This document shows positions 2,499-62,534 of a stretch of DNA of 64,000 nucleotides, piece by piece (within the stretch, counting starts at the first letter, position 1; the number at the start of each line of letters is the position of its first letter). Source of the stretch: Octopus vulgaris. Its lineage: Eukaryota. The translations under genes were made by a program, and so were the position numbers. The stretch spans positions 27,590,001-27,654,000 of the forward strand of contig OX597821.1 in the NCBI GenBank assembly GCA_951406725.2. Direction: 5' to 3'. The notes beneath the pieces were generated by a model. The model was not told where the DNA came from and did no database searches. It saw only the letters and a program-made list of their open reading frames with translations.

Positions 2499-2927
2499 AG
2501 TTAGTTAGTTAGTTAGTTAGTTAGTTAATTTGGCTCAAAAGCAAATAGCAAGGCCATGTAGGGGGACATGGAATTAAGTACAGGGTGGTGTTCATGTAAA
2601 GAGTTCAGGCCACTTGAGGTCCAGGGAGACTTTGAACAAAGCGGTCGTCGGCATCTTCACCATCTCGTCTGGCAGCTTGTTCCACGGATCCGCAACCCGG
2701 ACGGAGAAAGCTCCTCTCCTTCGATTGAGATGAAATCGTCGCAGGTAGAGCTTTTCAGAATGACCCCGCAGCCGACGCTCTGGAGCAGGAGTGAAGAACA
2801 GCTCTTTCGAGAGGTTACGCTTTCCGCTTATGCTGTTGTGGGCGAAAATGAGATCACCACGGCGGCGCCGTTTTTCAAGAGAATAAAGGTCGAGCCTCCT
2901 CAGCCTTTCTTCGTAGGGTAGATACAT
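2499..2927 (-). mobile_element. CR1/L2-group LINE 3' end (post-RT C-terminus) with (TAAC)n tail
   Basis: Minus ORF 2592-2927 reads YEERLRRLDLYSLEKRRRRGDLI...RLRGH...FSVRVADPWNKLP, typical of the CR1 ORF2 C-terminus. A short UTR and (TTAG)n on the + strand follow at 2499-2527. Confidence 0.85.
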
Positions 2928-2976
2928 ATAATAAAAATCAGTAACAACTGTACATCTTTGTTACACGCACACACAC

Positions 2977-10019: not shown

Positions 10020-11275
10020 ATTACATGCGAAGAAACCTCCTATGGGGTTACGGCAAATAACCTTAGATGCCAAGAACCCTCTTAAGTATCCTAGCTGTTT
10101 CTAATAACACTGCTTTCTGCAGCTGTGCTAAAATGGGTTTTGTGCCTGTTTCCTCTATCCATCTGTGCAGGTATTTAGGGATAGTTCCCAATGCACCTAT
10201 ATCTACTGGGACACATCTTACCCGAAATTTCCATAGTCTCTGTAATTCAATCGCTAGGTCCTGGTACTTTTGTCTCTACTCCTCATTGACTGTAAAGTCA
10301 ATTATCTGGTACATTCTAATCTCTTTATCTCCTACTATCTAATCAGGCTTTCTAGCTTCTATTACTCAGTCAGTTTGAATATTAAACTCCCACAACATCT
10401 TGTACTTCTTACTTTCTAGTAGTTTACTAGGTCCATGTTCATGCGATTTATCAGTATGGGCAAATCCTAGTACTCTACAAAGCTCCCAGTGGATTGCTTC
10501 CCCTAGATTACCATGTCTTTTCTCGTATACCTTCTGTGCTAGCATGCTACATTCTCTTACTCTATGAGTAGCACATTCTTTTTTGATTTGCATAATATAC
10601 ATTGGGAATGTACTTGGTTTTTGTATATCTTGGCTTTTATCCAATTAGTCCTTAATGTTTAACCTGGTGCTGCTACTAACATATTTTGTGTTTCCCCCTT
10701 CAGCTTTCCCTTCTGCAACCTTAACTATTTGCTGAGACTGTCTTTGGAAACCTTCCGTGCAACGCCTTCTCCTGCCATTCAGATATTTTAAAACTGGTTT
10801 TTAAATTCGTTTTGCTATTTTGGTTTCCCAATGTCTTGCTGTGGCTCTAGCAGCTTTTAATAAACTAATAAACTTTCTTCACTATTATCTACATGGGAGT
10901 CTATATCTACTCTAGTTAGCTCCATGCAGTCTTCCACTGATATAAACCCACTTCTAACGTCTTTTCTAGGTAGGTATAATCTTGGTATTCCTGTGCTTCG
11001 GTGGTGTCCTCTATACATATTGCATTCCTTCCTAGTTTTTCTGCCTAGCTTTGTTAATTCAGTTTTTGTCCAATCTACAAATACTGATGTGTATCTAAGT
11101 AATGATACTGCCCAAGTATTTACAGCCTTCACTAGATTCGGACCAGTTAGCTTTCACTTCATTAGCTTCCTCAGCCTTCTTATGTACTCCTCAATTTTTA
11201 TTTTCATTTCTATACTTAGTATTCTGTCTGATTCTAGTACACCTACATACTTATAACTCTCTACTCCTTTCAATG
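10020..11275 (-). mobile_element. Decayed R4/Dong-type non-LTR retrotransposon 3' part
   Basis: Broken minus-strand ORFs: KAVNTWAVSLLRY...RLYLPRKDVRSGFISVEDC and KRHGNLGEAIHWELC...LWEFNIQTD. These parallel the YIHRHD..IHWKLC..ILWDMPIHTD motifs of the LINE at 13.6 kb. Confidence 0.75.
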
Positions 11276-12685: not shown

Positions 12686-13595
12686 GTATATATATATATT
12701 TATATACACTCATTCATGTTTAGTGAACCGGAGGAACTATAATATTTTTATAGCCATCAACGATAGTTTTTCACCTTGATGAATGGGCGAATTGTATGAT
12801 ACCGATCAAGTGGTTTTAAAGGAATTTGATTTATATGCAGCCAAATCAGACCACCAATGAACAAACGATTCAGCAGTTACATCCGTAACAACAGAGTTAA
12901 ATATTTTGTTGTTTCAAATATATGACATCGGTGTGCAGGGATTAAATCCGTGATAACTTTAATGATGCTTTATTTCTTTACTTTCGTTTATATTCGATAT
13001 TTCTTTAGCTTGTTTAATGATGTTCTCCAAAACACAAACTGTCAATCAAATATATAATGGACAAACATCAAGTATGGTAAACTATTTGGCAAAAAGGTTC
13101 CTCTGTGAATTTTAAGCTTTTCCATTACTTTCCAATGCGTATTGTATATTTGATTTCGTTTTAGAATATTTGAACTTAATGAATTTTGCTAAAAGAAGCA
13201 GCAAAATTAGAGTCTTCCTTGTACAAACAGTAATCTGCAGCCTTCCTATTTAAAGGGAAAAACTACACTGCTGCATTTCCCTCTCCTCCTCATCCTCCTA
13301 CTATTACTTATACAGCTGATGGCACCACTATACTGCTACCGCCACCATCAGCACCATAGATACTACTAACACTTTCTAAGAAATTGACCAAACATTTTGG
13401 TTTTGGGAGGCGGCAGGTCGACGACATCGACCCCAGTGCTTGAATGGTATTTATTTTATCGACCTTGGAGGGATGGAATAAAGTCAATCACAGCGAAAAT
13501 GAACTGAGAACGTAAAGTGGAACCAAATACCGCTAAGCAATTTTCCCCGGTTCGCCGCATTGCTGCGACTAATGATATCGATAATCATAATGATG

Positions 13596-13644
<49 letters not shown>

Positions 13645-13648
<4 letters not shown>

Positions 13649-14663
13649 CACAAGGAAGCTGACAAATACAAACAAGAAATCATACCACCTAATAAACATG
13701 AAGAAGAAGAAGAAGAAGATGAAGAAACAACAAAAGCTATAAAACAAATGAAATCCAAACTAAAAACAGAACAGCAACGAACCATGATAAAACGATGGCA
13801 AGAAAAGCCCCTTCATGGTAAATACTGCACTAAACTAAACGCAAAAGAAATAGACAAAGAAAAATCCCAGCAATGGTTGAGAAGCTCAGGACTCAAAGCA
13901 GAAACAGAGGGATTTTTAATTGCAGCACAAGACCAAAGCCTCCCCACCAGAAATTACCAAAAACATGTAATGAAAAGAAATATTACAAGTAACTGCAGAA
14001 TATGTGGAGATGGACAAGAAACAATAAATCATATTATCTCTAGCTGCCCAGTCCTGGCTAAGAAGGAATATATTCACAGACATGACAGAGTTGGAACCTA
14101 CATACATTGGAAGCTATGCCAACATTATGGAATAACAACAGAAAAAAGATGGTATAGGCACACACCAGAAAAGGTCACAGAAAACGAGAAAGCAACCATA
14201 CTCTGGGATATGCCGATACACACAGATAGAGAAATTAAGGCCAACAGACCAGATATAGTTGTCAGAGATCATGAAGAAAAAAAATGCTTTTTAATTGATG
14301 TATCAATACCGGCAGATGACAACGTGTCTCTAAAAGAAATGGAGAAACTCTCAAAATACAAAGACCTGGAAATAGAGGTAACTAGAATGTGGAATCTGAA
14401 AACAGAAACAATTCCTATCATAGTAGGTGCATTAGGCATGATAAAAAAATATTCAGACAAATACATAACAAAAACACCAGGACTTACAAACACATATAAC
14501 ATACAGAAAATTGCACTACTAGGCACTGCCCACATCCTACGCAGAACACTTTCCATACAATAACCATCAGAGCATCACAACAAATCACAGCACATACCCA
14601 AGGCACACAGAGCTGCGCTCGGTAGTGAAGTGAAAGCACGCTATAAAAATAAAAATAAAACTA

Positions 14664-21107: not shown

Positions 21108-21439
21108 CATCTTTTCACCGGTCGTTAGGTTGGTCTTCCAAGTCATCGCCACTTCACGTCACTGCGACAGAAATGCTACATGCACCAATTAGTGACTTTG
21201 ATGTCCTAGGTTGGGACTATGTATTAGATTTATATTCTCGGTTGATCTTGCTTCTGTAATTATTGAAGACTGCAACTAATTTATGTATAATGGGTATACA
21301 AGGAGTGTGAGAAAATATTACACAGTCGAATTCGAAAAATGTTATTGGGGCAATGAATTGAAGAGTAGGACGGTAAATCATATATGGAACTGGAATTGTC
21401 TGATAATAATAGTAATAATAATAACAATAATAGTCATAA

Positions 21440-21895
21440 TAATGTTCACTTTATTGGCCACAAGATCCGGGCAGAAAACAGAGAAAGACAGTATAACACA
21501 TGCAAGAAGTGGGGCTCACCACAAAATTAGTGTATATAATCAAAATTATGGATTGTGTGTAGTTCAATGTGGATTAATTTTCATAGGAGGTCTTCCTCAC
21601 CTCCAGTTGGCTGTTACTGTCTTCCAAGACGATATAAACAAAAATCCACCACAAATTAGCCTCAGCCTTCTTTCTAAACGTGATGGATGGAGAACATTTT
21701 TTACGCTCCAGAAGGGAGCCACGGATTGCTTGACGGCCAGCGCTACAGTCTCGGAAAGCGTTGAAATGCCCACAAAGTGCTTGACTCTAGAAATGTGCTG
21801 GAAGCCTGGGAGTTCTCTTTCAGTGCACCTTCTACTTATGCCTAGGAAGGGATACATGGTAATGTCTACCCGTGTTTATTTCGGCCTTACCCTTT
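21440..21895 (-). mobile_element. Probable retroelement 3' fragment, family not identified
   Basis: GC-richer block that ends on the minus strand in aataaa followed by an (ATT)n-like tail. No convincing protein motif. Confidence 0.35.
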
Positions 21896-21934
21896 GGCCG
21901 TTATGTAGGTTATCCGCACAAACACACACACACG

Positions 21935-22003
<69 letters not shown>

Positions 22004-23779
22004 ACACACATATATATATATATATATAAAACACTGTGACTTTTCCGCAGTTGTGAATGCATTATTATTGTTATAGTTCTGGTTGATATTTTTGTCGCTA
22101 AGAGTTGATGTTTTTGGTATTGTCACATTTATTAAATTTCCTTGCTGTGTGTGTGTGTGTATGTGTGTTTGTTGTTGTTGTTGTTGATGTTGATGTTGAT
22201 GTTGCTGCTGCTGTTTATGTTCATCCTGGGGTGAGGCGCACTTTATTTTGATCTTCATGAGAGCTTACTTCCCTATTCCATGTGAGGGTAGAATGTGGAA
22301 GACTCTGAGGTGTCTTGCATTTCACTTTCAAACCTACCTTTTACTGCTTCTTTCATTTCTTATACCAAAGCTGGCGTCGCCATCTCTATTTATAAAGTTA
22401 TATTTCCGTAAACAAAATGACCATTATCTAATCGAATTCATGATCCCAAAGAAGCACATACAAGCAGAAAACCAAAGCTATGAAATGGTGGTGTATATAA
22501 CAAACGTTTTCCTAACTAAATAAACAGTTAACAACTTTTGAAGACACAAATTAAAGAATTGAACTTACGAGCCAGAAGCCACACGTGCTTCCAGTACAAT
22601 AATAACATAAAATGCAACAACAATAATGATAATAATAATAAGAAGAATTAGAGAAGAATTTTATATTTTGTAGTGATACAAAATATATATTCGTGAAGAA
22701 GGAACAACAATGTCTTTAGACGTAGAGTAAGACAGTATTGTAAAAGGAAGGAAGACAATTTAAGGAAATAAAGATTTGAATTACATTTCTGTCGATCGTA
22801 TTTCCAGAAACTATATTAAAGAGATGTCAAGAAATTGACAAATTATGACGCATTTGACGAAACCATGCGCTTAAATTTGCTACGCTAGGTTTGCTTCACA
22901 AATGTGATAGCTGAATAATTCTAAGTTTTCTTATGTGTAAACCTTATTTCAGATATATCTATACTCACTGTCAGAAATGATTCACTTGCGAGGCTCAACT
23001 ACTTCAGACAAATTCCAACTAACATATTACGTATTTGAAGTGACATTAGAATGATCACATACATGTATGTACATATGTTTATTACTCTCTCCGTGAGAAT
23101 ATATCGTTTAAATTTAGATGTGGAAATCTATTTAATATTGAAGTCGAAATGAGGTCAATTTCACTGTGTCAGCTGAAATTTCCTTCATGAAGAGGCGTTG
23201 AGGATCTTTTAGAAGTAGAATTTCTAAATAATGAGTATATGCAAAGATTTTTACTACGTTACCATACTGAAATATCTACTCTTAGAAATAAGCTCATATA
23301 AATTATTCTAATGGAATATATCTTTAACTGTATATCATCTTACCAAATAATTTTCTGTATGCTCAAAAACAACAGCTTCATTAATCATTCTATAAAGTTT
23401 TACGGCATTACTTTGCTTACATTAAGTTTGATAGAATAATTTTGGCATTTTATTTATGATACGAAGATATAGGACATTCAATTCTAAGATTAATTATTTT
23501 GACCACAGCAATTTTTGAATTCAGTAGAAATTAGAACATACGATATGTTACATTGGATACAATGCATCTACTATTTGAAGGGATCTTGTCTTTCTCTGAA
23601 TAAGGCTGATTATGACAAATTTTAGAAATTCGTTTTCTGAATTGAATTAGTCCCAATGTGGTTAAGCGGCATCAAGCGATTCAGTATTCTGGGTTAGCTT
23701 TATGATGATACTGAATTAGTACACATGAAATCGCAACTTGGACTCATTTATACTTAATTTCTAAATCCTTAAATCCTTA

Positions 23780-24050
23780 AAATTGTTTCAGCCCGAAGGC
23801 TGCAGCAATGTTAGGGCACCACCGCTGAATGAGCTACACTAATATGTGAATCCACATCTGATACGTGGCACTTGGTCAACAAGGGAGTTTGATGCTGCTG
23901 CTCGCATCAGTGTCTCCTGTCGTGAGGTAGGTTTATCTGGGACCCCCAACAAGAAGAGATCCAGTTTATTTTTATAGAACCACACATCCACACCATACAC
24001 GTCTCTCAGGCATTTAGGGAGGATGTTAAAGAGCTGTGGTCCTCTAGTTT
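23780..24050 (-). mobile_element. CR1-like LINE 3' end
   Basis: RGPQLFNILPKCLRD...YKNKLDLFLLGVPDKP...SNSL, typical of a CR1-group ORF2 terminus. Confidence 0.7.
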
Positions 24051-27000
24051 GTATATTGAGCATATTTCATTAGTATCTCGATATCAGCTAAATAAAACCC
24101 TACTATGGAATTCGTTGGATTCGTTGGAGAAGGTGTTGCATCTGGTTTGTCACGACAAGAAACTGTTATCATTGATCCAATGTGTCGGAGATAACATACG
24201 ATAACGTTACACAGCGTTAAATGGCTAAATAAAATAACGTTGCTTCTATAGGTTATATGATATATTAAAACTTGAAAGTAATATCTATGTATTCAATATT
24301 AGGAATATAAGGAATAACTTAATTATTTGTCTATAATCATATCATGAGATAATATAATTTGAATATATTCTTTAATAAAAGCACTGCATCTCTAGACATT
24401 GATTGAAAGTAGTGAAATATAGTTATTAATATTCTGTTGTAGTAGATTAGAGAGGTATTACAATGTCTCGAAGTAGCTCACTTCAGAGTTATAGTGATAT
24501 ATATTTCAATGTCACTGCAACGAAAGTTGCGGTGAAATAGATGAGCTTTGTTACACATAGGATCGCGTTGAGAACAGAACGGTTGTATATGACAGACGGT
24601 AAACCAGATCCAGCGAATTATCTTATACAACAATCTGGTGTTTCTAGTAGAAATTCAGAACAAATCTTTGGTCTGATGATATTCAGCATGAATTCCAGTG
24701 GGTGTTTTCATCAAAAACAGAGCATGACACGTAAGCCGTCCTCTATGTCCCTTCAGGATGCTGTATAATGTCTTGTACACGATCCTTCCTTTTCTGAGTA
24801 AAATCATGAAATAAGGGAAAGAAATTTGATGTCATTCCTTGACTTTTAAAAGATTTTCTATGTTTTTGATTTGTAAGTATATGTTCTTAAAAGTGAAACG
24901 CCAAGAATATGTTTATCGTTTGATAGATGTTATTAATTTCGACAAAATGTTTCGTGAGTTTATGATAGCTCTCCGTACATTACAATGTTTTCTTGAAAAT
25001 ATCTAATAGCTATTAAATATACTAGAAGCAGTCAACCTCAGATATCTGTCAAATATCATTGTGGCGAATGTCCTTTCTCGTAATGTTTCTTGGCATGGAT
25101 ACAGTAATTATCCCTGTATTATTTATATATCTCTTCAACACCTTTTAGTATTCGGCAAATGGAATGAAGTGTTTGGTTCATTAATCATATTAATATATAC
25201 TTCAATAATAATTTTTTTTATTTTATATCCCACTGTGATTGATGAACCTTCCACACTCATGGGACAGAATAATATATACTGGTAATTTATTGATATCTTT
25301 CTGCACGTTAAACACTAGTAATCATACAATTTCAAAGAAATCAATAAATTCTATATCGCTCAATGTTCCTCATAGCTGTTGATCACGGCTGGAATGGGAT
25401 ACTTTCCTTTTACTTTCATCTTTTATAAAGTGATCATACGTACTAGATCTGGTAAACAGTGAACAAAGTTGTTCATGTCAGAAACGAAGATCAATAATTT
25501 AAAAACAGAAATATTACAGCTAAGATATATATTACGATACAAAAATCGATAATTTGATCACAGACGTTGAATTTCGAATCATCAACATTGTTTCTATGGT
25601 GTCACTTTGATGCTTCATTACAAAGATCTTTCCCCTTTACACCAGTACTGGATTTTAAAGGACAAAAAAAAATTTCCCTGAAAAGATTTCAGTACAGGAT
25701 ATAAACAGTTTCAAATACTGATCTGCTTCTTCCTTGAACTAGTTTTCAGAATGGATGAACAGGTTTTCGTTTATGAAATTGTTTAAAAATACGTATCATT
25801 TAAAAATATTTTTTCTTTCACTTCCCTCATTGGGAAGAATAGTTCATCTTAATCTGTATGGGATATATACAGTTATTTTCTTTTAAAGTAAAGATTACTG
25901 TGTTACTTCAATTCTAGGACAACTTTGGTGCTCTGTAAAATTTTAAGAAGGACTTGGCGGTGAGATGCCTGAATGCTTGAATTGCTAGAGTGTCAGCGGA
26001 AGCTCTTTACCTTATTAGTCCCGACTCTTGAAATACTTAGTTCTAATTCTGCTGAGATTTTCTTTACCATTCATTCCTCATCAATAGATAAAATAAAGTA
26101 TTGATTAAATTATTGGTGTCAACGGGATGGAAATGCCACCTCACCTGAAAATCGCCGCCTTTGTGGCAAAATCAGGATTTTTCACGAAATACTATTACGC
26201 TCTCTTGTGAAAAAACATGACTTACATGGAAAACGCAAGAGTTGAATCAAAGTCACGCATTTTAGAGTATGTTATAGAAAGCAACAGTTAGGCTTATATC
26301 TGATCGCACCAGCGATTGAGGTCAATCGAGACTGGTGATTTCGGTCAACTGTTTCACTTGTGGTGCACTCCTGCGTTTCCTATTGGCTAGACCTGCCTCT
26401 AAAACATCTGAGCTATGATTCTTTTCTGAGGCAATCTGACAATATGCAGATTTGCCAGAGTCGTAATCTCCCAGATTTGAGAAATAGTGCTTCGATTTGA
26501 AGCATTTCTTTGATATAATACCAGCTTGTAATATTGTTACTAAATTGAATTGTGCATCAAACTTTACTAATGGAAAAAAACTCGTGCGTTGTTGCTTTTC
26601 TTTCTAGAACAAATAAGAAAAACGATTCGCTATTGTTTAATTTCACACCATAGATGCTGGAAAAGTTGCTACGGTAACGCGTTTCCTTAAACAATACAAG
26701 TTATAGTCATGACTCCAAACTGAAAGGTTTTCTTCATCATAGGTTTGCAAATTGTAACCTAATCTGTAGCGATGCAAAAGCAAAACAAAGCAAACAAATG
26801 GCAACGAAAACAGTCAAGAGCAACACATTTAGAATTTGCCTATATCTGAATGGTAGTCATATAAAGACTTTCTACCATGAAAGAATTAGAAACACTGAGT
26901 TCCAAACCATTAATATGGTACACTATCAACTATGTCAGATTCCACATTCAGTGATTAATAGACAAAATAACATATACAAAATGTTCCTCAAAATATATTC

Positions 27001-27509: not shown

Positions 27510-28400
27510 TAAATGTCCGATTTTGAACGGAAAGTATGTTTTATTCTATCTCAACAAAGAGCAGTGCATTTATTCAAAGTATGCACCGAAATCCTTTAAC
27601 ACTATTTTGCCTTTTTATCAGTAGCTTATTTATACTGGCAGCGAAGAATTCTAGAGAGCAAGAGGTGGTGAAAACAAGAAAATCTGTTTTTGCATCTTCC
27701 TCAGATTTGAAGTGTTTTTCTTTGCAAAACGTTGTCTAATGCCTGGAAAACGTGATAAAAGTTGGTGCATGGTCTCCTGAATATGGTGGATAACAAGGTA
27801 CTTCCAAGTTCAGTACCTGTAACTTGAGTAACGTTTTCTGCACATGTGGTCGAGTATTGTTTTGCAAGAGAATTGGCCTGTCTCTGTTGACGAATCCCGG
27901 TTGTTTAATTGCAAGTTCACTCATCATTTCATCCATTTGGTTAATGTATACATTCGCTGTAATTGACCTGTGAGGTCTCATGAAGCTATAGTTGATGACC
28001 CCAGCGCTAAAGCACCAAACATACACCATTACCTTTCTTCTTTTGGTAAATATTCTTTTTTGGATTGTGGTTTGGCAATTCGTTTCTATCCACCGAAAGT
28101 ACAGGACACTTGCTATTGTTGAAGAAAACCCATCTTTTATCACACGTAACAATACGATACAAAACTGTTTCGATTTTATGCCGTGACAGCAAAGAACAGC
28201 AAGTTTCAAGACGACGTGGGGCTTGATGTGCGTTCAGTTTGTGTGATACCCACTTGTCCAGTTTCTTTATCTTGCCGATGTGTTTCAGATGGTCCAATAC
28301 TGTTGGAATCGAAAATCAAACCTTAATGCTAACTCACGCGTTTGAGATGTGTCCGCGTTCATTATAATTTCCAGCTCAGTATTATCCACCTTTGGTCTCA
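27510..28400 (-). pseudogene. Decayed mariner transposase
   Basis: Frameshifted fragments KKLDKWVSHKL (WVPHEL), RIVTCDKRWV, KVMVYVW, PILLQNNTRPHV and PPYSGDHAP (YSPDLAP). Boundaries are approximate. Confidence 0.85.
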
Positions 28401-30282: not shown

Positions 30283-31573
30283 CGAGGGACGTTCAATACG
30301 TAATGCCTCTGACCAACTTGCAGTTGTTTGATCTAGCTAAAATGTTGCATGTGCAATTATTTATATCTCTATAGATTAAGAGGCAAATTACAGTTCTGAA
30401 CACATTGTGATTTATGATTTACAGGTGTTTGAACTGAGTCAAGTGCGAAATAGAGCATGTTGATTGACGAGCAGTGATCCGGTTTTTGTATTTGAAAGGA
30501 CGTACACCACGGGATACATTTGAATTAATAAAAGTAACTTATGGTGATGATGCCCCATCATATGACCTTGTAAAACGCTGGTATCGTGAATTCAAACATA
30601 GTCGGTCTCTGTGGAAACAGTTCCCAGATCTGGTAGCCCCCCTTCTGCCATTGATGAGGCATCTGTCCGTCAAGTTAAAGCTGCCATTTTGGAAGATCGA
30701 CGCATAACTATTCGCCAAATAGCCCATGGGGTCAAGATTAATACCGGGTCTGTGGAAACTATCATTCATGACCACTTGCATATGCAAAAGGTATCTGCCA
30801 GAGGGATTCCCAGGCTGCTCACACCTTTCCAGAAGCAAGAACGCGTCGAGTGCTCGAGGATGAATTTGGAGATGTGCCAAGAAGATGAGTCAAAATTTTT
30901 CAATAGACTGATTACACAGGATGAAACCTGGGTCCATCACTATGATTCAGAGACCAAAGCCCAGTCAATGCAGTGGAAGCACCGTGACTCACCTCCTCCA
31001 AAGAAGGCAAGGGTGTAGCCCTCCGGTGGCAAGGTCATGCTCACAGTCTTCTGGGACCAGGACGGAGTAGTGATGACAGATTTCCTGGCAAAGGGTACGA
31101 CAATTACACGAGCCTATTATGCTTCACTTTTGACGAAATTAAGAGAAGCTATCAAAATCAAGAGGCGGGGGCAAGATCAGCAAAGGCATCCTCCTCCTGC
31201 AGGACAACGCTCCGGTCCACAGCACGCGTGTCACCAGATCAAAATCACAGGTGTGCGGTTATGAACCTCCTCCCCATCCCCCTACTCTCCCGGCCTTGCA
31301 CCCTCTGATTTTCACCTCTTCCCAGCCATGAAGTTATTTTTGAAAAGAAAGCGTTTCCCAGATGATGCAGCCTTGATTTCTGAAGCCACGTCGTGCTTGG
31401 AGGACCAAGCTGGGGTTTTCTAAAAAACGGTCTCCAGAGCTGCATCAAACAATGGGAGAGATGCGTAACTCTGGGTGGTTTCTATGTACACAAAGACTAA
31501 TAACTGTGCCACGTTTCGTTGCTCTACTGCTATGGGAAGTGGGTCAGGGGCATTACTTATTGAACGCCACTCG
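30283..31573 (+). mobile_element. Full-length mariner (DD34D-type) transposon with inactivated transposase
   Basis: TA|CGAGGGACGTTCAATACGTAATGCC...GGCATTACTTATTGAACGCCACTCG|TA gives imperfect TIRs and a TA TSD. Motifs: IRFLYLKG, SARGIPRLLT, ITQDETWVHHYD, LQDNAPVH, PYSPGLAPSDFHLF. Frameshifts and stops are present. Confidence 0.93.
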
Positions 31574-38312: not shown

Positions 38313-38499
38313 ATGATAATAATAATAATAATAACAACAACAATAATAATTATAATGACGATGATAATGATATTTCAAACTTTGATACACGGCCACAATT
38401 TCGAATGCGGGGTAAATCGATTACATTAGTCCCTGTACTCAAGTGGTACTTATTCTATCGAATACGAAGGGATGAAAGCTAAATTCGACCGAGGCGGAT

Positions 38500-39706
38500 G
38501 GGGATACAACTGTTACCGCAAAACAATCAGCCACCTCTTATATATGAATGACCAAAAACCGTACGCTACAAATGACAAGCAGCTGGAAACATTACTACAG
38601 ACAGTACATGGGTTTCCCAAAGAAATAAATATGAAATTTGGCTTAGAAAAATGTGCCAAAGCCGCTTTGAAAACAGGAAAACTAGTTAAGAGTAGCAACA
38701 TCACGCTAGATAAAGCAAATGAAATAAGAGAATTAAACCAAAGCCAGACATACAAATATTTAGGAATCAGTGAACCAGATGCGATACAACACACACAAAA
38801 GAAAGACAAAACTGTAGACGAGTTAATACTGAACAAAATGTCATAGCGACAAACAAGATAATAGGCATCAACACTCTAGCCGTCCCAGTTACAAGTTACA
38901 GCAATGATATCCTCAACTAGACACTAAATGAACTAACCAAAATACATAGGAAAACCAAAAACATAATGACAGGATGTATGATGTACCACTTAAAATCTGA
39001 CATATAGAAGGTGGTAGAGGCCACATATAGCTAGAAAACTATTACAAATAAACCGCCATATGACTTCAAAAATATCAACTTCAAAACCAAGGAAAACTAA
39101 TACAAGGATCCACAAAACACGAACAAGAAAACTGTTTTCAGTCGTCACCGACACGACAAGTTTGGGGCCTACATACACGGGAATCTATACCAACATTATG
39201 GAATAAAAAAAGAAAAAAGATGGTATAAGCTCACGCCAGAAAAGTTCTCAGAAAATGTGAAAGCAACCATACTATGGGATATGCCAATACACACAGGCAG
39301 AGAAATTAAGGTCAATAGGACAGATACAGTTGTCAGAGATCATGAAGAAAAAATGCTTCATACTTTATGTATCAATACCAACAGATGACAACCTTTCTCT
39401 AAAAGAAATGGAGAGACTTTCAAAATAGAAGCATCTGGAAATACACGTAACTCGAATGTGGAGTCTAAAAATAGAAACAATTCCTATCATAGTGGGCACG
39501 TTAGGTATGATAAAAAAAATATTCAGACAAATACATAACGAATACACCAGAACTAACAAATATATATAACATTCAGAAAACAGCACTACGTAAAACATTT
39601 TCAATACAGTAACCATAAGAGCATCACAGCAAACCACAGCATGTACCCAAGGCACACAGAGCTGTGCTCAGTAGTGAAAGTACGTAACAAAAATCAGACT
39701 ACTGCA
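38500..39706 (+). mobile_element. Decayed, internally deleted copy of the R4/Dong-type LINE at 13.6 kb
   Basis: RT motifs ISHLLYMND and INMKFGLEKCA, plus YKYLGI. 39140-39700 aligns by eye with 14070-14665. Ends in (TAA)n. Confidence 0.88.
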
Positions 39707-54495: not shown

Positions 54496-54950
54496 AAAAT
54501 TCCTAATGACACGTACGCTGAATAAGCATCCCTCTACCTACTTCAATTTTGTGAACATTTTGTCCAAAAATCTCCTGAGCTGGAGCTGATATAACTAAAG
54601 ATATAAACATTATTTAGAAAGTTCTACACGCATGAATAACTTCCAAAAAATAGAATGAGGCAAAAACAAATTAATTAAAATTTCTCTAGCACACCTATCC
54701 ATCACAATCAGCCTTAAAACCTAATTACCAATGAAAAGACTCACAGAAACCACAGTGGAATCTATTTCAGACCAAGATAAACTTTATGCTTCACCGTCAG
54801 ATGATGGATTAGTTGGTGGAAAATTCGAAGTTATTCGAAGTTATATCCTCGTTAAGTATTAGTAAATCTGTATATACGTACGTACTTATCTATGTATGTA
54901 TGCACGTATATGTATGTACGTGTGCGTCCGTGTGTGTGTGTGTGTGTGTG

Positions 54951-55208
54951 TTTCCCGGTTTCTGTGGCATATGTTCCCCCCAGCTGGACGGGAGGTCAGT
55001 CCATCTCAGCGTTACTCAAGAAACAGGAAGACAGGGTGAGAGAAAGTTGTGGCGAAAAAGTACAATAGGCCCCCACCCCTGACGGAGCCTCGTGGAGCTT
55101 TTAGTTGTTTTTTCGCTAAATAAACACACACAACACCCGGTCTGGGAATCGCAACTGCGATCCTCGACCGCGAGTCCGCTGCCCTAACCACTGGGCCATT
55201 GCGCCTCC
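54951..55208 (-). mobile_element. tRNA-derived SINE
   Basis: Minus head ggaggcgcaatggcccagtggttagggcagcggactcgcggtcgaggatcgcagttgcgattccc (A box, degenerate B box), ending in (CA)n. Confidence 0.75.
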
Positions 55209-55230
55209 AAATAATAATAATAATAATAAT

Positions 55231-55265
<35 letters not shown>

Positions 55266-55332
55266 GGTCCCGGGTTGATTCGGGGTTAACCACAGTAAGT
55301 AAGGTACTCAATACATAGCAGAGTAAAATTAA

Positions 55333-55774
55333 TTTATTATATAGAAGGAGCTTCTACAGGACTAGTACTGTTTCATTCAAGAGAAATCTTCAGGAAGCTA
55401 TTTAACAAGAATTGTATTAGCATTTATACATTTAGGCAGGTTTAAAGGAGTGGTGGTGGGGGACTTTTTGGGGGTAGGCATAGCGCAAAATATCATACTT
55501 GGGGGAGTGGTCAAGGAGTCAGTGGTAAGTTAGATGAAAGAATAGATAAATAAAAAAATAAAAAAATAAAAAATAAAAAAATAAAATAAAAAAATAAAAA
55601 ATATAAAAAATATATATAAAAAAAATATATATAAAATATATATATAAAAAAATATATATATAAAAAAAGGGGGGATAGAGTTATAGGTAAATAAGGAGAT
55701 TCTCACTTATACCTATACACACATATATACGTATCTACACACACATACATACATACACATATATCTACACACAC

Positions 55775-55805
<31 letters not shown>

Positions 55806-55974
55806 CATATATATACATATACATATGTACACACATACATACATATCTACATACACACATACATACACCCGCCCACATATACAAATTTATACACATGCAC
55901 ATGCCTATACCTGTCTACACATACACACACGTATATATGCATACACTCACTCCCATGCATGCACGCATACACAC

Positions 55975-56009
<35 letters not shown>

Positions 56010-56711
56010 CACGACCACACATACATATATACACATAAAAAAATATATATTCATACGCACATACACTCATGCACACACAACACACCTAGTTCCCTATATA
56101 CACATATTTACACCTATATATACATACACCCACATACACCTATGTACACATATATATATATAAACATATACACGCATACATATATATACATGTGTGCACA
56201 TACATACATACACACATATATACATACACATACACATACACATGTGTACCTATACATACCTACACATACACACATACATACATACAAATATACATATACA
56301 TATATATATATACACACCAATACAGGCCCATTCCCTAATTTTAATTTTATTATCTTCATTTATTACTTTTGTTATCTTTGATCGCTAGGGCTAAGAATCC
56401 TGGCAATGGCTGCTTGTCCATTTGTCTGTCTACTAGAAGGCAAGTACTCATTCCCGCACGCACACTCATTAGCACGTACATTCACCCATTCGTACACTCA
56501 TACACATACACGTACGCACGCGTTATATTCATACATACAAACATCTACATACGTTCACGTATATACACATACGTACTCGTACCTACAGATTCGTGTCTAC
56601 ACTTTAGGAGGCTAGTCTATACATATACACCAATAAATATACATATATACATATATATACCCGCATATACATACACACACACACATATATACTCCTACAT
56701 ACAGATACATA

Positions 56712-56751
<40 letters not shown>

Positions 56752-57243
56752 CATACACATACACACATACATATACACACACATATACATACACATATAT
56801 ATATACACAAACATATATACACACATATATATATACATACACACATACACACATACATACGTATACATACATACATACATCCATACATCCATACTTACAT
56901 GCATTTATACGCATACACACACCCATCTATATATATGTATATATATATATATATATATATACACACTCACACATACATATACAAATCTACGCACACACAT
57001 ACATACATACACGTATACGCATACACGCACATACACATATACATGCGTACCCATACACGTGCACACACGCACGCGCATCCATATATATACACACACACAC
57101 ATATGTATACACGTGTGCAAGCATACATACATACTCATACGCGCACACATACTTACAAATACATATATGCACACACTTACACACATATATATACATACAC
57201 ATATACATGCATACATACATATATGCATACATACACACACGCA

Positions 57244-57289
<46 letters not shown>

Positions 57290-57348
57290 TATATACATAT
57301 ATAGATATATATACACATACATACACATACACATACATACACACATAT

Positions 57349-57393
<45 letters not shown>

Positions 57394-57519
57394 TACATAT
57401 ATACACATATACATACATATACATACACACACACATACATATATACATATACACATATACACATACCCATACATACACATGCATATACTTATATCACTAC
57501 ATACTCACATATATAAACA
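55333..57519 (-). repeat. Left arm of the ~2.2-kb inverted repeat (inverted pLTR copy)
   Basis: Reverse complement of 60190-62402, including unique islands (e.g. gatcgctagggctaagaatcctggcaatggc). The ORF track shows mirrored translations (56369+ vs 61364-; 56899+ vs 60802-). Confidence 0.95.
55349..55399 (-). ncRNA. Type I hammerhead ribozyme (left arm)
   Basis: Exact reverse complement of 62336-62386. Confidence 0.8.
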
Positions 57520-59128
57520 GCTACTTCACCCTGAAGGACCACAAAGACCATTTCGAAAATAAACCGTCGGTCCGTTTGATTAACCCAACCAAGTCTGACA
57601 TCGGATCCGTCAGCAAGAAGATCTTGGACAGGATTTTACCAAAATGCGTGAAGCTTCACCCTTCCACTCTGGAATAGGACCTCCGAGGCAATAACTTGGT
57701 TCCGGGATTTACCAGATAAAAGCAACACCCGATTCCTACAACTGGATATCGAGGATTACTACGCCTCTATATCGGAGAGCTTGCTGATCGATGCGATTAA
57801 CTTCGCCAGGAGGTCCTCCACCATCACCGAGGCCGAGCAAGATGTGATCCTCCACGCACGTAAGACTTTTCTTTTCTATGACGGATCCCACTGGATCAAC
57901 AAAAAATCTGTGACCCCCTTCGACGTCAGCATGGGTGCTAACGACTCTGCTGAAATAAGTGACCTAGTGGGCCTTTTCATCCTCCATAGGCTGAAAACCC
58001 TATTCACAGCCTCTCCGGTGGTCTTTACCGAGATGACGGCCTTTTCGCCCTCCACAATATAAACCCCAGGACCACGGATGGGTTCCGGAAAAATCTTCAC
58101 ACCTTCTTTAAAAACTTAGGCCTTAGGATTACCCTAGAATCCAACTTAACTAAGGCTAACTTCCTAGATGTCACCCTCGACTTAAAAACCTCACTTTATT
58201 ACCCGTACCACAAACCAAATGAATCCCTTAGATATATAGATATCAATTCCAACCACCCCAGAAATATATTAGATAACCTAGTAAAAAGTGTCTCAATTAG
58301 AATCTCTAGCCTGTCCGCCACGGAAGATATCTTTAAGGCCGCAGCCCCCTATTACAACGAGGCCCTGGCCCGCAGTGGTTTTAAAGATAAGATTACCTAC
58401 ACTAGTATAGCCCCACGCCAACCCAGGAAAAATAGACGAAGACACATTAGCTGGTACAACCCCCCTTCAACCGTGAGGTCGCTACACCTGTAGCTAAGAT
58501 CTTTTTCACTCTCCTACAGAAACACTTCCCCACCCAACATAAGTACTACACTATCCTAAATAAGAACACTATTAGACTCTCCTACTCTACCACGCCCAAC
58601 CTAGCCAGGAACCTAGCCAACAACAATGTGAAAAAACTTAACATATCTACTTTCTCCGGGGCCCATCCAACGTCCGATAGCAATTGCAACTGCCATGATA
58701 AAACCACCTGCCCCCTCAACAACAACTGCCTACAGAGGGACCTAGTATATAAATGCGAGGTAAGATCAGGCCTTGACGATAAAAGTAAATCCTACATTGG
58801 AATGACGTCAAACAGCTTTAAGACCCGCTGGTATGCACATACACACTCGTTCCGGCGACAGGATAAATCCAACCAAACTACCCTCGCCGCCCACATCTGG
58901 TACCTTAAAAGGAACTCAATCCCCTTCAAGACCAAGTGGAAACTACTACAGAAGGCGCGCTCGTACACAGGAGGACATACCTGCTGTGACCTATGCATAT
59001 CAGAGAGCCTAGAGATCTTGTTCGCCAAAGGCCCTCTCCTTAACAAATTTTCAGAACACTCCCCAAATTGCATGCATAAGAAGTATGCGAACTACAAGAA
59101 CTATAGACCTACCCGGCAACCTGATTGA
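57520..59128 (+). CDS. Penelope-like reverse transcriptase + C-terminal GIY-YIG endonuclease (5'-truncated, about four frameshifts)
   Basis: Joined frames: [65 protein letters not shown] (YRDD 58026-58037), [18 protein letters not shown], CNCx5CPLx3C, VYKC...YIGMT...FKTRW..H, CDLCISE, LLNK..E...CMH. Confidence 0.92.
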
Positions 59129-59367
59129 TGACAACCCCCCCCTACAACCCCCCCCCTACAACCCCCCCAACCCCACTGTTCCCCTAGCACCCCCGATTAC
59201 CTTTTCTCCTAAGACCTTTCACATATTATATGTGCACGCTTGTATATGTGTATCGTATGTATGTATGTATATATGTATAGAAATGCATGGGTACAGTAGG
59301 AATATACGCATGTATTATGTGTGTGTGTGTGTATGTATGCATGTAAAAATATATATGTATATATATT

Positions 59368-59412
<45 letters not shown>

Positions 59413-59780
59413 GCTTGTATGTGTGTGTGTGTGTATATGTGTATATGTGTTTGTATGTATATGTGTATATATGTATATGCATATGTATGTGTAAATGTAT
59501 GTGCTTATGTATGTGTATGTATGTATAAAATATTATATAATTAGGGCTTAGGAAAATAAAATAAATTACTTTGCCACATACTAAACTTTCTAGAAATAGC
59601 AGCCAATAAAGTTTTTAGCCTCTTCCACTACTTAGAGAATTTTTTTCCCTCTAACATTGTTTACTCAAAATAATAATGGTCCCTTTACATACTGAACACT
59701 TGATGAAATTGATTAATAACTAATTAACTTTACCCTCCCTTGTTGATATATATATACATATGTATATGTGTACATGTATG

Positions 59781-59813
<33 letters not shown>

Positions 59814-60189
59814 ATGTGTGTATGTATGTATTTGTATATGTGTGTGTATATGTATGTGTGCGCGTGTGTGTGTATGTATGTGTATGTATACTTGTATATG
59901 TATATGCATGAATGTATATATATGTGTGTGTATATGTGTATTATGTATGTATTTATATAGATATGTAGTTTATATATATATATATGTATGTATATGCATC
60001 TGTCTGTGTGTGTGTATGTGTATATATGTGTATCATTTTTGCGTATGTATACATGTATATGTGTATATGTATGTGTGTGTGTGTGTGTATGTATATATAT
60101 ATATATATATTTGTATATATATGTATATACATATATATGCATACGTATGTGTATGTACATGTATATATGTATGTGTGTATATGTATATA

Positions 60190-60315
60190 TGTTTATATAT
60201 GTGAGTATGTAGTGATATAAGTATATGCATGTGTATGTATGGGTATGTGTATCAGTGTATATGTATATATGTATGTGTGTGTGTATGTATATGTATGTAT
60301 ATGTGTATATATGTA

Positions 60316-60350
<35 letters not shown>

Positions 60351-60413
60351 GTGTATATGTGTGTATGTATGTGTATGTGTATGTATGTGTATATATATCT
60401 ATATATGTATATA

Positions 60414-60457
<44 letters not shown>

Positions 60458-60949
60458 TGCGTGTGTGTATGTATGCATATATGTATGTATGCATGTATAT
60501 GTGTATGTATATATATGTGTGTAAGTGTGTGCATATATGTATTTGTAAGTATGTGTGCGCGTATGAGTATGTATGTATGCTTGCACACGTGTATATATAT
60601 GTGTGTGTGTGTATATATATGGATGCGCGTGCGTGTGTGCACGTGTATGGGTACGCATGTATATGTGTATGTGCGTGTATGCGTATACGTGTATGTATGT
60701 ATGTGTGTGCGTAGATTTGTATATGTATGTGTGAGTGTGTATATATATATATATATATATATACATATATATAGATGGGTGTGTGTATGCGTATAAATGC
60801 ATGTAAGTATGGATGTATGGATGTATGTATGTATGTATACGTATGTATGTGTGTATGTGTGTATGTATATATATATGTGTGTATATATGTTTGTGTATGT
60901 ATATATATGTGTATGTATGTGTGTGTATATGTATGTGTGTATGTGTATG

Positions 60950-61008
<59 letters not shown>

Positions 61009-62402
61009 GTATATATATAGGTATGTATCTGTATGTAGGAGTATATATGTGTGTGTGTGTATGTATATGCGGGTATATATATGTATATATGTATATTTAT
61101 TGGTGTATATGTATAGACTAGCCTCCTAAAGTGTAGACACGAATCTGTAGGTACGAGTACGTATGTGTATATACGTGAACGTATGTAGATGTTTGTATGT
61201 ATGAATATAACGCGTGCGTACGTGTATGTGTATGAGTGTACGAATGGGTGAATGTACGTGCTAATGAGTGTGCGTGCGGGAATGAGTACTTGCCTTCTAG
61301 TAGACAGACAAATGGACATGCAGCCATTGCCAGGATTCTTAGCCCTAGCGATCAAAGATAACAAAAGTAATAAATGAAGATAATAAAATTAAAATTAGGG
61401 AATGGGCCTGTATTGGTTGTATATATATATATGTATATGTATATTTGTATGTATGTATGTGTGTATGTGTAGGTATGTATAGGTACACATGTGTATGTGT
61501 ATGTGTATGTATATATGTGTGTATGTATGTATGTGCACACATGTATATATATGTATGCGTGTATATGTTTATATATATATATGTGTACATAGGTGTATGT
61601 GGGTGTATGTATATATAGGTGTAAATATGTGTATATAGGGAACTAGGTGTGTTGTGTGTGCATGAGTGTATGTGCGTATGAATATATATTTTTATGTGTA
61701 TATATGTATGTGTGGTCGTGGGTATATATATATATATATATATATATACATGTGTGTATGCGTGCATGCATGGGAGTGAGTGTATGCATATATACGTGTG
61801 TGTATGTGTAGACAGGTATAGGCATGTGCATGTGTATAAATTTGTATATGTGGGCGGGTGTATGTATGTGTGTATGTAGATATGTATGTATGTGTGTACA
61901 TATGTATATGTATATATATGTATATATATATATATATGTATATATATATGTGTGTGTAGATATATGTGTATGTATGTATGTGTGTGTAGATACGTATACA
62001 TGTGTGTATAGGTATAAGTGAGAATCTCCTTATTTACCTATAACTCTATCCCCCCTTTTTTTATATATATATTTTTTTATATATATATTTTTTATATATA
62101 TTTTTTTTTATATATATTTTTTATATTTTTTATTTTTTTATTTTATTTTTTTATTTTTTATTTTTTTATTTTTTTATTTTTTTATTTATCTATTCTTTCA
62201 TCTAACTTACCACTGACTCCTTGACCACTCCCCCAAGTATGATATTTTGCGCTATGCCTACCCCCAAAAAGTCCCCCACCACCACTCCTTTAAACCTGCC
62301 TAAATGTATAAATGCTAATACAATTCTTGTTAAATAGCTTCCTGAAGATTTCTCTTGAATGAAACAGTACTAGTCCTGTAGAAGCTCCTTCTATATAATA
62401 AA
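60190..62402 (+). repeat. Right arm of the inverted repeat (distal part of the ~3.3-kb 3' UTR/pLTR, 59129-62402)
   Basis: Reverse complement of 55333-57519. Ends in a short A-run followed by (TA)n. Confidence 0.95.
62336..62386 (+). ncRNA. Type I hammerhead ribozyme (right arm, sense to RT)
   Basis: agcttc CTGAAGA t-ttc-tctt-gaa-t GAA acag-tactagtc-ctgt A gaagct. Stem I is 6 bp, the core is CUGANGA/GAAA, and stem III is 4 bp with a palindromic ACTAGT loop. Predicted cleavage after GUA at 62380. Confidence 0.82.
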
Positions 62403-62406
62403 AAAA

Positions 62407-62534
<128 letters not shown>

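What the first reader, a model, noticed from the sequence alone, without database searches (positions are those of the whole stretch)
55262..62402. Penelope-like retroelement forming a ~7-kb foldback with a hammerhead ribozyme at each outer end
Seen: an RT/GIY-YIG ORF sits between near-identical 2.2-kb inverted arms (55333-57519 and 60190-62402). The ORF starts exactly where the left arm stops, each arm has a hammerhead near its outer end pointing outwards, and (TA)n flanks both sides. Known: PLEs have pseudo-LTRs that often contain hammerheads, and 5'-truncated copies often carry an inverted pLTR. Inference: this is a young TA-targeting family with a pLTR far longer than the usual few hundred bp. 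A read-through transcript would fold into ~2.2 kb of dsRNA, a potential ADAR/small-RNA substrate. From memory, the TLKDHK..RLINP and CxCx5CPLx3C..CxxC motifs resemble the Hydra-type PLE clade, which needs a tree to confirm.
Basis: partly seen in the sequence, partly recalled or inferred. Interest (0 to 1): 0.85.

Follow-up and report, generated by a model that had tools for sequence, protein, structure and literature searches.

The report
Hydra-type Penelope retroelement foldback insertion
This is a truncated, folded-back copy of a young Penelope-like jumping gene, a normal shape for such elements, but its many sister copies show two regularities (a foldback almost always joins one long and one short end, and many copies stop at the first base of the ribozyme with an extra G) that likely record how these poorly understood elements insert.

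Summary
The foldback is real. The arms (55333-57519, 60190-62402) are about 99.7% identical, each carries an outward-pointing type I hammerhead, and (TA)n flanks both ends. The ORF is a 5'-truncated remnant (177 codons missing). Its four one-base gaps are probably assembly errors. Motifs fit the Hydra clade; no tree was built. The arm is not a long pLTR but an inverted, truncated copy of a 3-kb, two-thirds microsatellite 3' region, and such inversions are usual in this family (24 of 40 copies) and are described for PLEs. The family adds three things. (1) It has two fixed 3' ends 70 nt apart, and foldbacks pair one of each in 21 of 22 unselected cases. (2) About half of foldbacks are ~200-bp hairpins whose arms stop at the hammerhead's first base (236 perfect junctions against 5 and 6 in controls). 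(3) That base lies 29 nt behind a TATA box and often carries a foreign G, the likely trace of an RNA cap. Best model: both cut DNA strands are primed at two internal sites of an uncleaved, capped sense RNA. The ADAR/dsRNA idea is untested.

The parts
55210..55261 (.). (AAT)n/(AT)n target tract, left flank
   Evidence: sequence
55262..55332 (-). 71-bp tail between the short (S) and long (L) family ends; makes the left end an L end
55349..55399 (-). type I hammerhead of the inverted arm; predicted cut between 55355 and 55354; inferred transcription start at 55399
55421..55428 (-). TATAAATG box 29 nt before the inferred start (left arm)
55333..57519 (-). inverted, 5'-truncated copy of the 3' region (left arm), two-thirds simple repeat
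57520..57522 (.). 3 filler bases at the head-to-head junction, found in neither parent
57523..59128 (+). 5'-truncated RT + linker + GIY-YIG ORF (lacks the first 177 codons; four one-base gaps in the assembly)
59129..62402 (+). 3' region, 67% simple repeat; 60190-62402 is the part mirrored by the left arm
62307..62314 (+). TATAAATG box 29 nt before the inferred start (right arm)
62336..62386 (+). type I hammerhead; predicted cut after 62380; palindromic loop in stem III; inferred transcription start at 62336
62387..62402 (+). short (S) end, 22 nt after the predicted cut
62403..62531 (.). short A-run and (TA)n target tract, right flank
   Evidence: sequence

Best explanation
This is one 5'-truncated foldback insertion of a young 5.2-kb Penelope-like family with Hydra-clade motifs, likely made when the element's enzyme cut both strands of a (TA)n tract and primed two cDNAs, one from each cut strand, at two fixed internal sites of a likely uncleaved, capped sense RNA. 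Shown: the family has two 3' ends, 22-27 nt (S) and 93 nt (L) after the hammerhead cut site; foldbacks carry one of each; many arms stop at the first base of the hammerhead, often with a foreign G, 29 nt behind a TATA box. Inferred: the two cDNAs stop at different points (here after 2.26 kb and 4.9 kb) and are joined head to head by end-joining. Priming at the S/L pair near the RNA's 5' end runs off at the cap and gives ~200-bp double-hammerhead hairpins. Priming that enters the 3' region and ORF gives long foldbacks like this one. This copy cannot make the full protein but keeps a predicted outward promoter on each arm.
For: Two discrete ends: of 79 hammerhead anchors scored in 40 loci, 29 end at +22 to +27, 27 at +93/+96, 17 run on into the ORF, 6 end elsewhere. 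Genome-wide exact matches: 2,455 L ends and 1,187 S ends on the + strand alone. One L with one S: 21 of 21 divergent pairs among 28 S and 32 L ends on C1:1-29 Mb; 49 of 50 pairs in 97 loci, and 21 of 22 in the loci chosen by ORF and not by ends. The two arms share the subfamily marker in 38 of 39 pairs. Minis: 19 of 39 pairs among the first 100 arms; arms cluster at -41 to -45; 236 perfect junctions at -45 against 5 at a palindrome met earlier and 6 for a 6-bp stem-I switch. Foreign G: 28 of 38 distinct sites where a -45 arm abuts (TA)n, 18 of them after pure TATATAT (9 viewed); background G after TATATAT is 5-7%; the element's own base there is T. TATAAATG lies 29 nt upstream. No cluster of arms stopping at the ribozyme cut was seen in the 40 loci. 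pN/pS between the two subfamilies is 0.15 (RT part) and 0.16 (EN part). A short-read contig joins an inverted arm ending at -45 to the ORF in another copy (X2 record 32). In vitro precedent: an anole PLE cuts and extends both strands, starts RT at two internal sites that bound the tail, and uses mainly uncleaved RNA (PMC11167929).
Against: All mechanistic steps are read from genomic products; no RNA 5' end, cleavage or enzyme activity was measured. One S/S foldback exists (L065). Ten of the 28 G's could come from a remnant of the partner arm, and an untemplated C added at run-off would look the same as a copied cap. Of 16 copies that reach upstream of the start codon (of 112 rows), none begins at -45 and 14 run past the TATA box. 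A simple linear capped pLTR-ORF-pLTR RNA therefore does not explain full-length copies; a circle, a multi-unit transcript or a strand transfer must be added. Marker concordance between arms would also follow if only one master copy were active at a time. In the anole work the two strands showed no difference in start site. Many insertions have a single arm only.
Confidence: 0.6

Rival explanations
1. The one-tail rule comes from DNA processing: a symmetric L/L intermediate forms and the endonuclease then cuts one arm at its internal TATATAAT, which becomes the S end.
For: The S end lies in a TA-like stretch resembling the target. Craig et al. 2021 suggest that the tail results from EN-mediated resolution (PMC8557442). 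It predicts exactly one tail per insertion.
Against: Single-arm insertions with S ends exist. In the anole element the tail's two ends are RT start sites in vitro. S ends often carry extra A's, which fits slipped priming.
Confidence: 0.2
2. Head-to-head inversions arise by self-priming on an antisense template, as proposed for rotifer Penelopes.
For: Perfect palindromes at the junction are common among minis (236 sites). Model stated in PMC3846280.
Against: The two outer ends differ (L against S) and both abut target TA. Long foldbacks have unequal arms and a non-palindromic spacer. The foreign G and TATA spacing point to a sense, capped template.
Confidence: 0.08
3. The ~200-bp hairpins are a self-propagating non-autonomous family copied from a few master hairpins, so their shared stop point is inherited.
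For: Many share one or two junction types, and both arms share the subfamily marker.
Against: Minis occur in both subfamilies and in both L/S polarities, show at least ten different junctions among about 22 viewed, lack the TATA box, and single-arm insertions stop at the same base. The L/S rule also holds for long foldbacks with unique junctions.
Confidence: 0.08
4. The foldback at this locus is a long-read chimera or assembly artefact.
For: The assembly has systematic one-base errors in this family, and this locus's inner junction was not seen in reads.
Against: The arms differ by the tail, the flanks are different unique DNA, the centre is a 2.67-kb non-palindromic spacer, the L/S rule holds across independent loci, and a foldback junction of another copy is in short-read contigs.
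Confidence: 0.04

Closest known systems
Hydra clade of C-terminal-EN Penelope-like elements, including Hydra-1_Obim and Penelope-13_HM (Craig et al. 2021, PMC8557442)
   Same: RW[KR], DKT, CxCx5C linker, CxxC and CxH around the EN, canonical hammerhead near the 3' end, (TA)n targets. Penelope-13_HM is noted with a 966-nt inverted 5'-truncated copy.
   Different: Unit 5.2 kb against 1.1-3.0 kb for the 27 listed families, because of a 3-kb microsatellite-rich 3' region. Tail 70 nt against 30-40. By eye a different family from Hydra-1_Obim (different protein and hammerhead; first ~400 aa seen, not aligned).
PAc, Poseidon element of Anolis carolinensis (Frangieh et al. 2024, PMC11167929)
   Same: Two internal RT start sites bound the tail, AT-rich targets, both strands cut and extended, uncleaved RNA as main template.
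   Different: Other clade. Its start sites lie inside the ORF and are reported as not homologous to the target, whereas here both ends lie in the 5' leader at short TA-like stretches. A one-L/one-S rule and cap-terminated hairpins are not stated in the main-text parts I read.
Penelope of Drosophila virilis and Adineta vaga Penelopes (PMC2377424, PMC3846280)
   Same: Partial tandem flanked by variable inverted repeats; tail on one inverted pLTR; palindromes at junctions; a putative TATA box in the A. vaga pLTR.
   Different: D. virilis uses an internal TATA-less promoter with an intron before the hammerhead. Here the inferred start is the hammerhead's first base, behind an upstream TATA box.
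Non-LTR retrozymes and dispersed minimal hammerheads (PMC4209133; bioRxiv 10.64898/2026.07.22.740005)
   Same: Short non-coding PLE derivatives carrying type I hammerheads. Opposite-strand pairs 100-700 bp apart were noted in Schistosoma.
   Different: Retrozymes are head-to-tail tandems. The minis here are head-to-head hairpins with one L and one S end and no TATA box.

Membership tests
Penelope-like element (EN+) | One ORF with RT and C-terminal GIY-YIG endonuclease | tested here: met
   RT motifs (YRDD) and VYK...YIG EN in the family. 7 of 17 copies chosen for an in-frame C-tract read through from RT into EN. Many of the 120 listed homologues are ~700-aa single ORFs. Pfam misses the window's pieces but hits homologues P0091 (RVT_1) and P0087 (GIY-YIG).
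Penelope-like element (EN+) | Partial tandems (pLTR), inverted 5'-truncated copies, optional tail | tested here: met
Penelope-like element (EN+) | Hammerhead motif in the pLTR | tested here: met
   Descriptor match and fold; same layout as the Hydra hammerheads in File S2. Cleavage not tested.
Hydra clade | RWK motif and DKG changed to DKT | tested here: met
   RWR and DKT in full-length copy L010; both lie in the part missing from the window's copy. RW[KR] in 102 and DK[TS] in 103 of 103 long homologues.
Hydra clade | CxCx5C linker, CxxC and CxH around the EN, CCHH absent | tested here: met
   [13 protein letters not shown] and CMH in the window's EN piece; only one Cys between the VYK and YIG motifs (read by eye).
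Hydra clade | Insertion into (TA)n | tested here: met
   Ends run into (TA)n in nearly all rows.
Hydra clade | Generally short (<3 kb); descriptive, not diagnostic | tested here: not met
   Unit 5,260 bp in L039; tandem spacings 5,193 and 5,210 bp.
Hydra clade | RT phylogeny groups with Hydra references | not tested
   The reference proteins were available only as paper supplement text. Exact words TLKDHK, RLINP and LYRDDGL occur 11, 12 and 11 times there; the places shown (first two of each) are Hydra proteins.

The most novel reading that the evidence does not exclude
The family is a genome-wide record of the PLE integration step. One complex holds two reverse transcriptases on two sites of one RNA and always uses a different site for each target strand. 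The transcript starts, capped, at the first base of the hammerhead, so priming near the 5' end yields 'strong-stop' cDNAs that are joined into on the order of a thousand ~200-bp double-hammerhead hairpins. Promoter-bearing full-length copies arise only from a ribozyme-made RNA circle or a retrovirus-like strand transfer, which would give the hammerhead its missing role.
Probability: 0.3. Interest if true: 0.75.

Novelty: new member of a known kind. Interest (0 to 1): 0.5.

Why it matters
How PLEs make their tandem and inverted insertions, and what their hammerhead does, are stated open questions (PMC8557442 section 15; PMC11167929). The locus itself is a textbook shape. The family is large, young and uniform enough to turn the qualitative remark 'tail often at one end' into counts and to place the RNA's 5' end to the base. 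It thereby gives sharp predictions (capped start at -45, L/S asymmetry, source of promoter-bearing copies) for an existing in vitro assay. Long copies also spread kilobases of microsatellite-like DNA, and the family has put at least 3,700 hammerhead motifs into this genome.

Tried and rejected
Programmed frameshift or dead family. All 30 top copies were split at one C-tract, but I reject both readings. Among the 100 listed of 162 sites, tracts interrupted by another base mostly have the in-frame length; contigs of 4 of 4 runs fill all four gaps; homologues are continuous; pN/pS is about 0.15. Contigs pool copies, so the state of this one locus is not shown. Palindrome or microhomology alone as cause of the -45 junctions: rejected by controls. 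Ribozyme-cleaved linear RNA as main template: no cluster of arms stopping at the cut. The one L/L candidate among 100 L ends resolved into L/S plus a further end (L108). Rfam matches shown were nearly all miRNA models on simple repeats, none at gathering score. No PDB relative. No tRNA gene. No earlier findings. Homodimer prediction for residues 1-490: no verdict. Expression: no RNA holder listed on record; the two 'RNA?' runs are guesses. A-to-I editing: only the ORF was laid, not the arms, so not examined. A first attempt at pN/pS for the RT part failed on an anchor and was redone.
Full report
Observation. The inverted arms are at the stated coordinates, with 6 substitutions and 11 microsatellite indels between them. 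The left arm has an extra 71-bp tail (55262-55332). A descriptor scan of both strands of the whole window found 2 hammerheads, one per arm, pointing outwards. Stems I and III form in the isolated motif; Rfam listed no hammerhead among 150 of 156 matches shown. The ORF is in four pieces and begins at codon 178 of the family protein after 3 filler bases. Two-thirds of the arm is alternating simple repeat. Positions below written with + or - count from the predicted hammerhead cut.

The family. The window lies on contig C8 of a 2.8-Gb genome; an octopus is my inference from genome size and repeat content, not a test. The ORF search scored 40 of 492 candidates and gave 43 matches, mostly 97-100% identical. 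The 40 best matches to the outer 269 bp were all 100% identical. The unit is 5.2 kb: a short leader, an ORF starting at +137, and a 3-kb 3' region. There are two subfamilies about 3% apart, with pN/pS 0.15 and 0.16 for the RT and EN parts of one pair of copies. Exact-match counts are lower bounds: 162 ORF sites, 3,763 arms covering the hammerhead core, 2,455 long ends.

Frameshifts. All 30 top copies were split at one C-tract, which first suggested a programmed frameshift. Tracts interrupted by another base mostly keep the in-frame length. Short-read contigs of 4 of 4 runs, from four studies, fill all four gaps. Homologues are continuous, and 7 of 17 copies picked for an in-frame tract read from RT into EN. 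These are therefore most likely homopolymer errors of the assembly. Contigs pool copies, so this locus's own state is not shown; it is non-autonomous in any case because of the truncation.

Classification. RWR, DKT, CxCx5C, CxxC, CxH, no complete CCHH, a hammerhead and TA targets match the Hydra definition. The length does not. No tree was built. A Hydra family from Octopus bimaculoides is already listed and looks different by eye.

The foldback is ordinary for the family. An inverted segment lies upstream in 24 of 40 ORF-anchored loci (my count; in L060 it belongs to an adjacent foldback), and four have longer arms than the window (L043, L055, L065, L067). Among 94 long arms of the window's subfamily on C1, 72 form 36 divergent pairs, 3 of them spanning 6.9 kb or more. 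The window's copy is at the large end but not unique. Such structures are described for PLEs in general.

Regularity 1: one long end, one short end. The 3' ends fall at +22 to +27 (S) or +93 (L). On C1:1-29 Mb, 28 S and 32 L ends gave 21 divergent pairs, all L+S. Over 97 loci there were 49 L+S, 1 S+S and 0 L+L. Twenty of these loci were fetched because they were L+S pairs, and 20 more were chosen by one end. In the 57 loci chosen by ORF the count is 21 of 22. The window follows the rule (left L, right S). Both arms share the subfamily marker in 38 of 39 pairs, which fits one template but also one active master at a time.

Regularity 2: hairpin minis and a capped start. Nineteen of 39 pairs among the first 100 arms are ~200-bp hairpins whose arms mostly stop at -41 to -45, the first base of stem I. 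The perfect junction there occurs 236 times; a palindrome met earlier gives 5 and a 6-bp stem-I switch 6. Where an arm starting at -45 abuts (TA)n, 28 of 38 distinct sites (44 rows, 6 duplicates dropped) have a G that is not the element's base. Eighteen follow pure TATATAT and 10 could come from a partner remnant. Background is 5-7%. A TATAAATG box lies 29 nt upstream. That an extra G marks a copied cap, and that about 30 nt is canonical TATA spacing, is recalled knowledge. I infer a capped start at -45; an untemplated base added at any RNA end is not excluded.

Result against the simple model. Of 112 rows, 16 copies reach upstream of the start codon. None begins at -45, and 14 run past the TATA box (extents inside the T-rich tract are minima). 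Three further copies missed by the anchor also run further. Full-length, promoter-bearing copies therefore need a longer or circular template or a strand transfer. Cervera and de la Pena proposed circles; tandem arrays exist here (L031/32, L045/46). I cannot separate these.

Mechanism. Shown: ends, pairing, stop point, foreign G, TATA spacing. Inferred: double-strand cut in (TA)n, two priming events at S and L on uncleaved sense RNA, head-to-head joining of the two cDNA ends. The anole PLE supplies in vitro precedent for both-strand extension, two start sites bounding the tail and an uncleaved template. Rivals are endonuclease trimming of one tail, antisense self-priming, a self-propagating mini family and artefact. 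One short-read contig shows a foldback junction of another copy. This locus's own junction was not among the listed loose ends (54 not shown).

dsRNA and ADAR. Untested.

Literature seen. PMC8557442: abstract, passages, sections 11, 12 and 15, supplement part 2 and search hits. PMC11167929: parts 1-2 of 4, supplements not read. PMC4209133: parts 1-2 of 4. PMC3846280, PMC2377424, PMC13282606: passages. bioRxiv 10.64898/2026.07.22.740005: parts 1-2 of 5. Nine searches listed no paper stating a strict L/S rule, cap-terminated hairpins or this family. Older subscription papers on Penelope structure and the unread supplements may contain such statements.

Verdict. The locus is a real but ordinary PLE foldback, from a family not found in the papers searched and carrying Hydra-clade motifs. 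The value lies in the family-wide end rules, which make the open question of PLE integration directly testable. Interest 0.5.

Noticed in passing
window 54950-55208 (-): A tRNA-like SINE head (by eye, recalled resemblance) lies directly beyond the left target tract, in the direction of the left arm's predicted outward transcript. Similar heads flank other copies (L104, L130).
   Followed up: no
L070-L084, L090, L091, L096, L106, L107, L109 (G000:C1): ~200-bp double-hammerhead hairpin insertions in (TA)n; about half of the family's foldbacks.
   Followed up: yes
L046 6398-6562 and L051 1495-1680 (oriented): Minis and a longer foldback inserted into (TA)n tracts of the element's own 3' region: the family targets itself.
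   Followed up: partly
L180, L181: Insertions in which the segment starting at -45 is copied twice in a row, as if the enzyme reached the RNA end, slipped back and copied again.
   Followed up: partly
L031/L032 (C8:3.33 Mb), L045/L046 (C1:68.81 Mb): Full head-to-tail tandem units 5.2 kb apart, candidate sources of multi-unit transcripts.
   Followed up: partly
L155, L156, L167, L055, L067: Foldbacks whose inverted arm reaches into the ORF; L156 has a palindromic junction (AGGCCT centre) inside the RT region.
   Followed up: no
L139 and L140 (C3:32.11-32.12 Mb): Two oppositely oriented copies with the same 5' truncation point and the same 40-bp flank, suggesting a local inverted duplication or a misassembly.
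   Followed up: no
window 27739-28315 (-) and 30468-31305 (+): Two decayed mariner-like transposase relics (by eye).
   Followed up: no
window 2595-2960, 10067-11153, 13508-14574, 21280-22026, 23842-24201, 38430-39667: Several decayed LINE-like RT fragments (by eye).
   Followed up: no
G000, family-wide: The assembly appears to under-call homopolymers systematically in young repeats, which makes intact elements look frameshifted.
   Followed up: yes
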